A stretch of 17,950 nucleotides of DNA from a virus (lineage: Duplodnaviria; Heunggongvirae; Uroviricota; Caudoviricetes). The translations under genes and the position numbers were made by a program. The stretch is from the IMG/VR virus record IMGVR_UViG_2663763326_000011, one strand, 5' to 3'. The stretch's first letter is position 1, and each line of letters starts with the position of its first letter. Positions 15,990 through 17,332 of the stretch are shown piece by piece. Under the pieces are notes generated by a model that had not been told where the DNA came from, did not search any database, and was given only the letters and a program-made list of their open reading frames with translations.

Positions 15990-16754
15990 ATGACTACAAC
16001 GGTATATGATCGTGTTAACGCCTTAGTAGCGACCGACTCTAGGTGGTCTGTTGATCTTAGCCCACATGGCTACGATGGTCATATCCTGTATATTGACGAT
16101 ACCGGCTTCGGTAAGCTAGCTCCACGAAATGATTTTGTTATGCTTTTAGCCGGTGATGGTCTTTTGATTCAGTTATGGAAGCATTGGTGGCGAGGAGACC
16201 TATCTCAACAAGAACCACCAGTTGTTTTACCTACTGGTCAATCGGTAAATTTACATATTGTGAAAAAATCAACTAATGAAGTGATTTTTGATAAAGGTCA
16301 AAAATTAGTTGTAAAAAATAACGAAACGGAAGAACTGTTCGCTGTCTTTACAGGCTCAGGATGCGGTGCTGCTGCGCAAAACTGGATGTATAGCCATTGC
16401 GCAAGATCAGCAATTGAAGAATCTAAAAAGCTTGACCCATACACTGGCGGCACTGTACGTTTTTTAGACTTCAGGACTAACGCATCATTAGTAGAAGACT
16501 CTGTTTCAACCATTAGCGAAGTAAACGAAGCTCTATTGCAGAGGGGGCTGATTATGGATACCAAAAACCCACATTCACCACACGTTTCTATCAGTGCACA
16601 AGAAGTTGCTGAAGTTCGTCAAATGCTGGTTAGTGGTTCAATTACCCCATGTGCACCAGTAGGCCAAAGAACCCAAGATTGGGATGACAACTCCAAATTG
16701 CGTTTAGCAAATGCTATTCAGCGTATTCGTGAAGAAGAAGCACAAATGCGATAA
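15990..16754 (+). CDS. Proteasome-beta/HslV-like N-terminal-threonine hydrolase fold protein with C-terminal extension
   Basis: 254 aa. Begins MTTT (Thr at position 2, as in HslV MTTIV); LVATDSRWS aligns with proteasome VLGADSR/ADTR; Lys41; LLAGDG resembles HslV AGFAGG; FTGSGCGAAAQ resembles HslV IGSGGPYAQAAA. AT-rich gene with no clear SD. Confidence 0.7.
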   Translation: MTTTVYDRVNALVATDSRWSVDLSPHGYDGHILYIDDTGFGKLAPRNDFVMLLAGDGLLIQLWKHWWRGDLSQQEPPVVLPTGQSVNLHIVKKSTNEVIFDKGQKLVVKNNETEELFAVFTGSGCGAAAQNWMYSHCARSAIEESKKLDPYTGGTVRFLDFRTNASLVEDSVSTISEVNEALLQRGLIMDTKNPHSPHVSISAQEVAEVRQMLVSGSITPCAPVGQRTQDWDDNSKLRLANAIQRIREEEAQMR

Positions 16755-16771
16755 ATGGAATAAGTAAGCCT

Positions 16772-16802
16772 AAAAAGCTGCCTATCATACAGGCAGCTTT
16801 TT
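16772..16802. terminator. Strong bidirectional Rho-independent terminator
   Basis: AAAAAGCTGCCT (16772-16783), 7-nt loop, AGGCAGCTTTTT (16791-16802): 12-bp perfect complementarity with an A-tract upstream and a T-tract downstream. Confidence 0.75.
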
Positions 16803-17332
16803 AGTCCGTTTCCCCATTCTATGTAAATACACTTCCTAAAAATAGCGATTAACTTACCTCTCACAATCAATTTCACGAGCAATACGCGTGCGCAGTACAA
16901 CAAGCCTGAACAGGGTTACACACCTCGATCGTGAGCGATGTAGACAATGGCTTTTGACCAAAGCACCCGAAAAAACCGTGTACATAAGGGTGTACGTAAT
17001 CAAAAATCGCATTAGGAAGAAACCAGCTACAATGCGGCATTGAAGCCAATACTCTACAAACAGATTCAGAATATCGAGTAAGCGACATATCTCCGTAGGC
17101 CGTTGTTAATTACAGCGGCGCTACGCATATAGTTTCGTCCTCATATTTATTTACTCCATACTTTTTCTAATGCATTTTACTTATCACAAAATCAGAAAAA
17201 TGCATTCTTACTACAGAAAATAGCAATTTCACATAACTACAAATTATCAATCTATTCTCTCCTTAAAAAATCTCAATCGTGACAATGCGCACAAATCGCT
17301 ACCCTTCCAGACAGATTTTTAGGGAGAGAACC

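What the first reader, a model, noticed from the sequence alone, without database searches (positions are those of the whole stretch)
15990..16754. Solitary proteasome/HslV-like N-terminal-threonine hydrolase at the cargo end of a phage satellite
The 254-aa product carries the full ordered motif set of the proteasome-beta/HslV family: MTTT start (Thr2 would become the N-terminal nucleophile after Met removal), ATDSR (Asp15), Lys41, LLAGDG and TGSGCGAAAQ. Unlike HslV it has no adjacent HslU-like ATPase, and it has a ~100-aa C-terminal extension. It sits in an AT-rich terminal segment next to a PerC-like regulator, a position where satellites often carry anti-phage or host-manipulation cargo. 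I know of no described satellite-borne proteasome-like protease, so it is a candidate novel effector, for example a defence or counter-defence protease.
Basis: partly seen in the sequence, partly recalled or inferred. Interest (0 to 1): 0.8.

Follow-up and report, generated by a model that had tools for sequence, protein, structure and literature searches.

The report
Phage-borne proteasome-like peptidase (RPC type)
The last gene of an E. coli mobile island encodes a stand-alone, proteasome-like threonine peptidase of a family catalogued by computer in 2021 but never tested; its relatives sit in prophage slots that usually hold genes expressed during dormancy, which makes an anti-phage role plausible but unproven.

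Summary

The novelty claim does not hold. Fuchs, Alva and Lupas (2021) catalogued phage-associated proteasome homologues. [quoted passage not shown] I could not confirm this by accession. No experimental work on RPC was found.

What I add is context. Relatives are solitary cargo genes in lysogenic-conversion slots. The commonest slot is immediately downstream of, and co-oriented with, the prophage CI repressor (the lambda rexAB position). Others are P22-like and lambdoid prophage ends and the end of a Vibrio filamentous prophage. This suggests expression in lysogens and possibly phage exclusion, but that is inference only. No known defence model matches.

The parts
15990..16754 (+). Gene for the 254-aa RPC-type proteasome homologue (WP_000214207.1; UniProt A0A0A2R2V7_ECOLX)
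15990..16484 (+). Residues 1-165: proteasome-like Ntn core carrying Thr2, Asp16, Arg18, Lys42, Gly55, Gly122-Ser123-Gly124, Asp149, Thr152, Gly153; only one helix (57-68) where canonical subunits have H1 and H2
   Evidence: phrog_1040 match over residues 1-165; profile alignment to yeast beta5 pairs these residues with Lys33, Gly47, Ser129, Asp166, Ser169; secondary structure; phage PPH ends at about residue 160-165
16485..16751 (+). Residues 166-254: family-specific C-terminal extension (helices 175-185, 204-215, 233-253; conserved G186, M189, A222-P223, W231)
   Evidence: Conserved across the family; no Pfam or PDB sequence match; confident only within the full-length model (block pLDDT 75-98) and poor when modelled alone (pLDDT 74.7, pTM 0.41)
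16770..16804 (.). Strong palindromic hairpin (16-bp stem with A/T runs on both sides), a likely bidirectional intrinsic terminator 16 nt after the stop codon
   Evidence: Terminator scan; sequence
15533..15820 (+). perC-family regulator gene, 170 bp upstream on the same strand; linked to the target only in this E. coli island
   Evidence: PF06069 E 2.6e-33; neighbour cluster 4 found only in window, L001, L002 and L030 at position -1
15375..15498 (.). Cluster of six TTGGTTCA iterons (three direct at 21-bp spacing, three inverted at 9-bp spacing) just upstream of perC; a twin cluster lies at 9173-9281 (plus one copy at 9510) after the primase gene
   Evidence: 13 copies in the window against 0.81 expected, 0 of 200 shuffles reach 13; repeat families
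17061..17077 (.). attR core CAGATTCAGAATATCGA (the native 3' end of yicC); right end of the island
   Evidence: Comparison of the empty site (L067 1501-1517), attL (L001 1392-1408) and the window

Best explanation
[quoted passage not shown] 2021). Proposed mechanism: methionine aminopeptidase removes Met1 (Thr is a permitted second residue, as in E. coli HslV, which starts MTTIV) and exposes Thr2 as the N-terminal nucleophile. Asp16 and Lys42 would form the proteasome-type triad, Gly55 the oxyanion hole, and Ser123, Asp149 and Thr152 would support the site. There is no propeptide and no dedicated unfoldase, so it should act as an ATP-independent peptidase, or less likely a transpeptidase, on peptides, unfolded proteins or one specific target. 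The roughly 90-residue C-terminal extension appears to pack onto the core, which lacks helix H2, and may set oligomerisation or substrate choice. Biologically it is a single-gene accessory cargo ('moron') of temperate phages and of this P4-like island. It is probably expressed in the lysogenic or integrated state, and the most likely pay-off is protection of the carrier cell or element against other phages. Shown: fold, residue conservation, absence of a partner, genomic slots. Inferred: catalysis, Met removal, oligomeric state, timing of expression, exclusion function.
Against: Pfam PF00227 and NCBIfam give no hit. Profile-profile comparison with archaeal beta subunits or E. coli HslV is not significant (probability 2.5-21%), so placement in the superfamily rests on a predicted structure, a marginal E of 0.005 and the PPH bridge. 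RPC membership is by described features only: the published representative accession WP_140207863 was not found in three cluster look-ups. I could not inspect model coordinates, so active-site geometry is unverified. Proteasome-type sites are normally active only in assembled rings, and oligomerisation is unknown here. No consensus sigma-70 promoter was found upstream. No PADLOC defence model matches. The related PPH occurs in a T7-like (Autographiviridae) phage, where a lysogen-protection role cannot apply. The CI linkage holds for about 15 of 53 non-redundant loci, not all.
Confidence: 0.6

Rival explanations
1. Lysogeny or SOS regulator: the peptidase processes a regulatory protein (repressor, antirepressor, or LexA/UmuD/DinI-type SOS component) to tune prophage or island induction, by analogy with the ImmR-ImmA repressor-protease pair of ICEBs1 (recalled from memory).
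For: Immediately downstream of and co-oriented with an S24 CI repressor in many loci; a DinI-like gene divergent upstream in Enterobacter-type loci; UmuD-like and UmuC-like genes next to it in other prophages; a PerC regulator upstream in the window.
Against: S24 repressors self-cleave with RecA and need no protease. The gene also occurs where no CI is nearby: this island, a filamentous prophage, lambdoid prophage ends and lysis-cassette flanks. DinI and UmuDC are themselves common prophage cargo, so adjacency may simply reflect shared cargo zones. No LexA box lies near the gene.
Confidence: 0.13
2. Lytic-cycle helper: like the short PPH proteins of virulent phages, it acts during phage development (host takeover, turnover of host or phage proteins, or processing of injected or ejection proteins) and not in the lysogen.
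For: Homology to PPH, which in Xanthomonas phage L13.2 (Autographiviridae) follows the lysis genes. In Aeromonas it follows a giant injected-type polyvalent protein. In the window the island carries P22 gp20/gp16-like ejection-protein genes 2.3 kb upstream.
Against: The full-length family is absent from 50,697 deposited phage genomes and is found in prophages and islands. It is typically co-oriented with cI or opposed to late genes, with its own terminator, the hallmark of lysogenic-conversion genes rather than late genes.
Confidence: 0.12
3. HslV surrogate: it assembles into rings and borrows the host HslU (or another AAA+ unfoldase) in trans, redirecting host proteolysis.
Against: No detectable sequence relation to E. 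coli HslV. H2 is missing and the extra C-terminal region changes the surfaces. The nearest characterised structural relatives, BPH and Anbu, work without an unfoldase according to PMC8665760. The family also occurs in Alphaproteobacteria and methylotrophs.
Confidence: 0.07
4. Host-fitness or virulence cargo under PerC control, unrelated to phages.
For: A PerC-family activator lies directly upstream; many carrier strains are human clinical E. coli.
Against: The PerC linkage is confined to this one island. Relatives occur in environmental Pseudomonas, Methylococcaceae, Methylopumilus and Komagataeibacter.
Confidence: 0.06
5. Catalytically dead structural remnant of a proteasome homologue.
For: No Pfam hit; no partner gene.
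Against: Every catalytic position is invariant over sequences down to about 25% identity, which argues for selection on catalysis.
Confidence: 0.02

Closest known systems
[quoted passage not shown]
   Same: Proteasome-like core related to PPH, lacks helix H2, additional C-terminal region with no known structural match, Proteobacteria only, similar family size.
   Different: No described feature conflicts. Membership was not confirmed by accession.
[quoted passage not shown]
   Same: MTT start, TDS-type Asp motif, GSG and D-x-x-S-G-G motifs, no H2, phage-borne.
   Different: PPH is about 140 aa and ends at about residue 165 of this protein. It occurs in virulent as well as temperate phages. This family adds about 90 conserved residues and was found only in prophages and islands.
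HslV (ClpQ) of the HslVU protease
   Different: No HslU partner, no significant sequence similarity, no H2, a C-terminal extension, and the beta-subunit-like D-x-x-[ST]-G-G motif.
BPH and Anbu (stand-alone bacterial proteasome homologues)
   Different: Chromosomal housekeeping-type genes with H1 and H2. BPH forms double heptameric rings and Anbu helical or dodecameric assemblies (PMC5777263 and PMC5666114, titles and abstracts). Here the gene is mobile-element cargo with a different C-terminus.
Lambda rexAB, P22 sieA and other lysogenic-conversion exclusion genes
   Same: Same genomic slots: downstream of cI on the same strand, between the ejection-protein genes and immI, and at prophage ends. 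The slot assignments for lambda and P22 come from established knowledge, not from a tool.
   Different: No sequence or fold relationship, and no exclusion phenotype has been shown for this protein.

Membership tests
Proteasome-like superfamily (MEROPS T1 / Ntn hydrolase fold) | Ntn beta-sandwich core flanked by helices | tested here: met
Proteasome-like superfamily (MEROPS T1 / Ntn hydrolase fold) | N-terminal Thr (or Ser) nucleophile exposed at residue 1 | tested here: met
   Thr follows the start codon directly; 206/207 Thr (1 Ser); 190 of 214 start with start codon plus Thr-Thr. Actual Met removal was not tested.
Proteasome-like superfamily (MEROPS T1 / Ntn hydrolase fold) | Asp17, Lys33, Gly47, Ser129, Asp166 and Ser169 equivalents | tested here: met
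   D16, K42, G55, S/T123, D149 and T/S152 are invariant. The HMM alignment to yeast beta5 pairs K42, G55, S123, D149 and T152 with Lys33, Gly47, Ser129, Asp166 and Ser169. The D16=Asp17 pairing is by motif and strand position only.
Proteasome-like superfamily (MEROPS T1 / Ntn hydrolase fold) | Significant match to the curated sequence model (Pfam PF00227 Proteasome) | tested here: not met
   No Pfam or NCBIfam hit even at E <= 10; hhalign to archaeal beta subunits gives probability 2.5-21%; only a 143-sequence profile reaches E 0.005 against PDB beta5.
Proteasome-like superfamily (MEROPS T1 / Ntn hydrolase fold) | Active-site geometry, peptidase activity and ring assembly | not testable with these tools
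HslV proper (HslVU) | Adjacent or co-occurring HslU AAA+ partner | tested here: not met
   Window neighbours are perC and yicG. No recurrent ATPase in 53 non-redundant loci.
HslV proper (HslVU) | Sequence similarity to HslV; about 175 aa with H1 and H2 | tested here: not met
   hhalign to E. coli HslV (sequence verified against 5ji3_A) shows no relation; the protein is 254 aa with a single helix at 57-68.
RPC (Fuchs et al. 2021) | Detectably related to PPH | tested here: met
   phrog_1040 E 2.8e-13. The same PHROG matches a 142-aa phage 'HslV family peptidase' at E 1.3e-21. hhalign probability 91-94%.
RPC (Fuchs et al. 2021) | Lacks helix H2 | tested here: met
   Only one helix (57-68) between strand 49-56 and strand 85-92; residues 69-84 are coil. 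The paper states that PPH and RPC lack H2.
RPC (Fuchs et al. 2021) | Additional C-terminal region with no match to known structures | tested here: met
   Residues 166-254 are conserved with no Pfam or PDB sequence match. No structure-level search of this region alone was possible because the isolated model was poor.
RPC (Fuchs et al. 2021) | Restricted to Proteobacteria | tested here: met
   All named hits are Gamma-, Beta- or Alphaproteobacteria.
RPC (Fuchs et al. 2021) | Clusters with the published representative WP_140207863, and not with DPH WP_074989469.1 | tested here: inconclusive
   Neither accession appeared among the accessions shown for 30 clusters. At most 4 accessions are shown per sequence, so absence is uninformative.
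PPH (Fuchs et al. 2021) | Compact protein of about 140 residues | tested here: not met
   254 aa; family median is 252 aa.
Known anti-phage defence systems (PADLOC-DB v2) | Match to a defence-protein model | tested here: not met
   No hit for the protein or for seven other island cargo proteins, nor for the alternative cargo in strain ETEC6.
P4-like phage satellite (the island that carries the gene) | P4-type integrase, AlpA, alpha-type primase-helicase and two iteron sites | tested here: met
   Integrase domains, Zn-ribbon/Toprim plus DUF927, and Ash; AlpA; 13 TTGGTTCA iterons in two clusters. The primase is frameshifted in this window. The resemblance to P4 ori/crr is recalled from memory.
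P4-like phage satellite (the island that carries the gene) | Capsid or helper-hijacking genes (sid, psu, delta, epsilon) | tested here: inconclusive
   None was recognised by Pfam or PHROGs among the ORFs scanned. Several ORFs have no annotation, and no dedicated satellite models were available.

The most novel reading that the evidence does not exclude
RPC proteins are a new class of single-gene, ATPase-independent, proteasome-like anti-phage (superinfection-exclusion or abortive-infection) effectors. They would be expressed from lysogenic operons (the cI-downstream 'rexAB slot') and from satellite cargo ends, and would act by Thr1-dependent cleavage of an incoming phage protein, for example unfolded ejection proteins, or of a host target. 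That would be the first function for any phage-borne proteasome homologue and the first proteasome-fold defence enzyme.
Probability: 0.3. Interest if true: 0.8.

Novelty: new member of a known kind. Interest (0 to 1): 0.45.

Why it matters
Proteasome homologues that work without an unfoldase (BPH, Anbu, PPH, RPC) have no known function. This E. coli member is easy to test. It is a small, solitary gene that is common in clinical isolates (seen on at least 1000 contigs). Its active site is intact, and its context points to expression in the dormant prophage state. If it restricts phages, it would add a proteasome-fold enzyme to the defence repertoire and give the PPH/RPC clade its first function. 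If it does not, the cI linkage still points to a role in lysogeny that is worth testing. For annotation, WP_000214207.1 and its roughly 580 family representatives could be renamed from 'hypothetical protein' to 'proteasome-like Ntn peptidase, RPC family'.

Tried and rejected
- Direct family assignment by Pfam or NCBIfam gave no hits.
- The single sequence, and a 36-sequence profile, against PDB sequences gave only chance-level hits such as mS26 and DAP decarboxylase. The mS26 match (E 0.006) in the C-terminal half was dismissed as chance because it disappeared with the profile.
- hhalign against single HslV or beta sequences, or a 17-sequence archaeal beta profile, was not significant. Only the 143-sequence profile reached E 0.005.
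- tblastn against 50,697 deposited phage genomes found no full-length relative.
- Modelling the C-terminal extension alone to fold-search it gave too weak a model (pLDDT 74.7, pTM 0.41), so I did not search with it.
- The published RPC and DPH accessions were not found in 30 clusters.
- My first att-site search started after the yicC stop codon and found only a 10-bp chance-level repeat. The true 17-bp core overlaps the end of yicC.
- The only LexA-box match in the window is at 9987, not near the gene.
- A sigma-70 consensus scan found no promoter upstream of the gene.
- A Pfam census of all 150 neighbour representatives was dropped as impractical. Recurrent clusters were scanned instead.
- Literature searches for any defence or experimental work on phage proteasome homologues found nothing.

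Full report
OBSERVATION. The quoted motifs are present in the stated order. The gene is 42.1% GC, against 46.6% for the island to its left and 52.5% for the host gene yicG to its right. A 16-bp-stem palindromic hairpin flanked by A and T runs lies 16 nt after the stop codon (16770-16804). The simple scan found no consensus sigma-70 promoter in the 170 bp between perC and the gene.

WHERE THE WINDOW COMES FROM. The window is an E. coli chromosomal island. Up to position 7238 it is identical to strain EcPF7 (NZ_CP054232.1), where the protein is WP_000214207.1, 'hypothetical protein'. Comparison with an island-free strain in which yicC and yicG are adjacent shows that the island is inserted in the last codons of yicC, with a 17-bp direct repeat, CAGATTCAGAATATCGA. 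attR lies at window 17061-17077. The target is therefore the last gene of the island, 307 bp from its right end. The island encodes:
- a P4-type integrase (1-1269);
- AlpA (2387-2602);
- an AntA-domain protein, an Ash-family protein, and Icd-like and other small genes;
- a Zn-ribbon/Toprim plus DUF927 primase-helicase (6391-9146);
- two P22-type ejection-protein homologues (10184-11539, Inj_translocase, E 1e-74; 11524-13641, 'DNA transfer protein');
- a few unannotated genes, then perC (15533-15820; PF06069, E 2.6e-33) and the target.
About 43 of 5,426 complete E. coli genomes carry at least 80% of the perC-target segment.

The model has one helix (57-68) where canonical subunits have two (H1 and H2). 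Residues 69-84 are coil.

WHAT THE PROTEIN IS: SEQUENCE. Pfam and NCBIfam give nothing, even at E <= 10. PHROGs gives phrog_1040, 'peptidase HslV family', at E 2.8e-13 over residues 1-165. The single sequence and a 36-sequence profile find no proteasome in PDB. Profile-profile comparisons with E. coli HslV, T. acidophilum beta (both sequences verified against PDB) or 17 archaeal beta subunits are not significant (probability 2.5-21%). A 143-sequence profile, however, hits only proteasome beta5/beta5i chains among all PDB sequences (63 hits up to E 10, best E 0.005). Its alignment pairs K42 with Lys33, A54-G55 with Ala46-Gly47, G122-S123-G124 with Gly128-Ser129-Gly130, D149 with Asp166, T152 with Ser169 and G153 with Gly170. 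The motif A-T-D16-S-R18 mirrors the archaeal A-T-E17-R-R19. That last pairing rests on motif and strand position, not on a significant alignment.

CONSERVATION. The family is compact and well defined. There are 80 clusters at 90% identity, and 578 representatives at 50% identity with E <= 1e-3, of which 183 have E <= 1e-30, nearly all 235-275 aa and aligned from residue 1. Conservation in 214 full-length representatives, counted over sequences with a residue aligned at each column:
- Thr2, 206/207 (one Ser);
- Asp16, 211/212 (one Glu);
- Arg18, 212/212;
- Lys42, Gly55, Gly122, Gly124 and Asp149, 214/214 each;
- position 123 is always Ser or Thr, and position 152 is always Thr or Ser.
190 of the 214 begin with a start codon followed directly by Thr-Thr. 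Most of the rest have an internal MTT, which suggests mis-called starts. So there is no propeptide. As in E. coli HslV (MTTIV...), Met removal would expose the nucleophile; that MetAP accepts Thr as the second residue is established knowledge, not tested here. The C-terminal part also has invariant positions (G186, M189, A222-P223, W231), so it is functional and not a linker.

THE C-TERMINAL EXTENSION. A phage 'HslV family peptidase' (Xanthomonas phage L13.2, XEN39269.1, 142 aa, MTTIVWDG...) matches phrog_1040 at E 1.3e-21. It aligns to the family profile with probability 91-94% (E 1e-6 to 2e-7) across the GSG and D-x-x-S-G-G motifs, and it ends at about residue 160-165 of the target. The extension is therefore residues 166-254 (helices 175-185, 204-215 and 233-253). 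It has no Pfam or PDB sequence match. Modelled alone it is poorly defined (pLDDT 74.7, pTM 0.41). In the full-length model the same residues have block-mean pLDDT of 86-98, except for a dip to 75 around the invariant A222-P223 loop. I take this to mean that it packs onto the core, possibly where H2 is missing, and is not an autonomous domain. That is an inference; I could not inspect coordinates.

WHAT IS ALREADY KNOWN. Fuchs, Alva and Lupas (Bioinformatics 2021; PMC8665760) described 22 new proteasome homologues from sequence searches. [quoted passage not shown] RPC comprised 79 nr90 sequences, exclusively from Proteobacteria. Like PPH it lacks helix H2, and it has an additional C-terminal domain that matches no known structure. 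Every one of those features fits the present family (see the membership table). I could not close the loop by accession: the published representative WP_140207863 did not appear among the accessions shown for 30 clusters, and the neighbouring clade DPH cannot be formally excluded. The paper reports no experiment and no context analysis for RPC. I found no later work on PPH or RPC function, or on any proteasome-like defence protein, in the searchable literature. BFVD contains at least 28 phage proteins with this fold, some already named 'Proteasome subunit beta' or 'Ntn hydrolase', but none matches the full-length architecture (TMq <= 0.44). The full-length family is absent from 50,697 deposited phage genomes. 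It is present on 36 IMG/VR viral contigs, and one cluster member is deposited under 'Caudoviricetes sp.'.

GENOMIC CONTEXT. I gathered 65 loci, 53 of them non-redundant, called genes with a simple greedy ORF picker and clustered the neighbours. No neighbour is universal and no ATPase recurs. The commonest neighbour, in about 15 loci, is an HTH_3 plus Peptidase_S24 CI-type repressor (Pfam). It is usually the gene immediately upstream, on the same strand, 101-403 bp away. Cro- or YdaT-type genes diverge on the other side, and there is no perfect-stem terminator in the gap in 8 of 8 loci examined. From established knowledge of lambda, this is the layout of P_RM-cI-rexAB. Other settings are:
- Aeromonas P22-like prophages, between a giant injected-type polyvalent protein and an arc/KilA-N-ANT immunity-I-like module, where P22 carries sieA;
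- the end of a Vibrio cholerae filamentous prophage, after zot;
- the extreme end of an E. coli lambdoid prophage past the tail-fibre genes, opposite strand, next to host DNA;
- beside a Pseudomonas prophage lysis cassette, opposite strand;
- Enterobacter-type prophages, between a divergent dinI-like gene and a convergent C-5 DNA methylase;
- next to umuD/umuC-like genes.
The perC linkage is confined to the E. coli yicC island. Within that island the segment just upstream of perC is variable: window 14518-15396 and strain ETEC6 L002 3782-5997 carry unrelated genes. All of these are classic accessory ('moron', lysogenic-conversion) positions.

HOW IT MOST LIKELY WORKS.
- Shown: a proteasome-like core with a complete, invariant active-site residue set; Thr directly after the initiator codon; no propeptide; no partner; a conserved family-specific C-terminal region; mobile-element cargo positions, most often co-oriented with the lysogeny repressor.
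- Inferred: MetAP exposes Thr2. Thr2, Asp16 and Lys42 hydrolyse, or possibly transfer, peptide bonds without ATP. The extension shapes oligomerisation or substrate choice. The gene is expressed in lysogens and island carriers.
- Function (about 0.3-0.4 for this step): the pay-off is exclusion of, or defence against, other phages. By analogy with genes in the same slots, I recall that rexAB, sieA and many mycobacteriophage repressor-adjacent genes do this.
Nothing in PADLOC matches the protein or its island neighbours, so if it is a defence gene it is not one of the catalogued ones.

RIVALS. The alternatives considered are a regulatory protease for lysogeny or SOS circuits, a lytic-cycle helper like PPH in virulent phages, an HslV surrogate that borrows host HslU, PerC-controlled host-fitness cargo, and a dead enzyme. 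Each is set out with its evidence in the rivals section. The first two remain live. The last is made unlikely by the absolute conservation of catalytic residues.

VERDICT. The claim of novelty is not supported: this is a member of a kind catalogued by computation in 2021 (RPC, related to phage PPH), though still without any experimental characterisation. The 'satellite' label is plausible but incomplete. The new and testable element is the context pattern, with lysogenic-conversion slots that include the rexAB position. That pattern makes a Thr1-dependent phage-exclusion role a concrete hypothesis. Interest is moderate (0.45). It would be high if the defence role were demonstrated.

Noticed in passing
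window 10184-11539 (+) and 11524-13641 (+): A P4-like integrative island carries homologues of the podovirus P22 ejection proteins: gp20-type Inj_translocase (PF16928, E 1e-74; phrog_917) and a 705-aa 'DNA transfer protein' (phrog_6704 and phrog_770, gp16-like). I found no description of a satellite-like element with helper-type ejection proteins. They might retarget or complement a P22-like helper's injection machinery.
   Followed up: partly
window 9173-9281 (+9510) and 15377-15495: The octamer TTGGTTCA occurs 13 times (0.81 expected; 0 of 200 shuffles reach 13) in just two clusters. Each has three direct and three inverted copies (the first has one further copy at 9510). One lies right after the primase-helicase gene, the other about 6.2 kb away just upstream of perC. 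This resembles the two iteron sites (ori and crr) of satellite P4's replicon (a resemblance recalled from memory, not tested).
   Followed up: partly
window about 7236-7245: A 1-bp deletion in a G-run relative to strain EcPF7 frameshifts the 918-aa primase-helicase gene into two ORFs (6391-7245 and 7281-9146). This is either a pseudogenised replication gene in this strain or a homopolymer assembly error.
   Followed up: yes
window 17061-17077; L001 1392-1408; L067 1501-1517: The island integrates into the last codons of yicC, with the 17-bp att core CAGATTCAGAATATCGA. attL rebuilds the end of yicC with a synonymous-type change (GAATAA instead of GAGTAA).
   Followed up: yes
window 14518-15396 versus L002 3782-5997: There is a variable cargo hotspot between conserved island blocks. 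This window carries a 151-aa gene (14818-15273, minus strand) and a 66-aa gene. Strain ETEC6 instead carries two unrelated genes (145 and 318 aa). None has a Pfam or PADLOC match.
   Followed up: partly
between window 17081 and 17159 (L002 7680-8842): dinD is present between the island and yicG in some E. coli strains (for example ETEC6) and absent in others, independently of the island. Island-free strains with yicC directly next to yicG exist.
   Followed up: partly
window 13661-14257 (-): A 198-aa ORF has a weak, sub-threshold match to Bax1-I (PF01027, E 9e-5, 22.8 bits against a cut-off of 34.1). It may be a small membrane protein among the island cargo. RefSeq annotates a shorter 131-aa gene here.
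   Followed up: no
L010 8777-10105 (Cupriavidus sp. a3): In Cupriavidus the family member is followed 60 bp downstream, on the same strand, by a 442-aa protein with a CLP_protease domain. This possible two-protease module was seen only once.
   Followed up: no
L003-L006, about 1-7485 (Aeromonas prophages): Giant (2,400 to over 3,600 aa) polyvalent proteins (InPase, MuF_C, LPD38, ddrB-ParB domains) lie two genes upstream of the family member, separated from it by a conserved 66-aa gene.
   Followed up: no
window 15290-15325: A short palindromic element, ACAGTATACCACTGTAT, followed by AACACTGTTATAC lies in the divergent promoter region between the 151-aa gene and perC. It is not a LexA box, and its role is unknown.
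   Followed up: no
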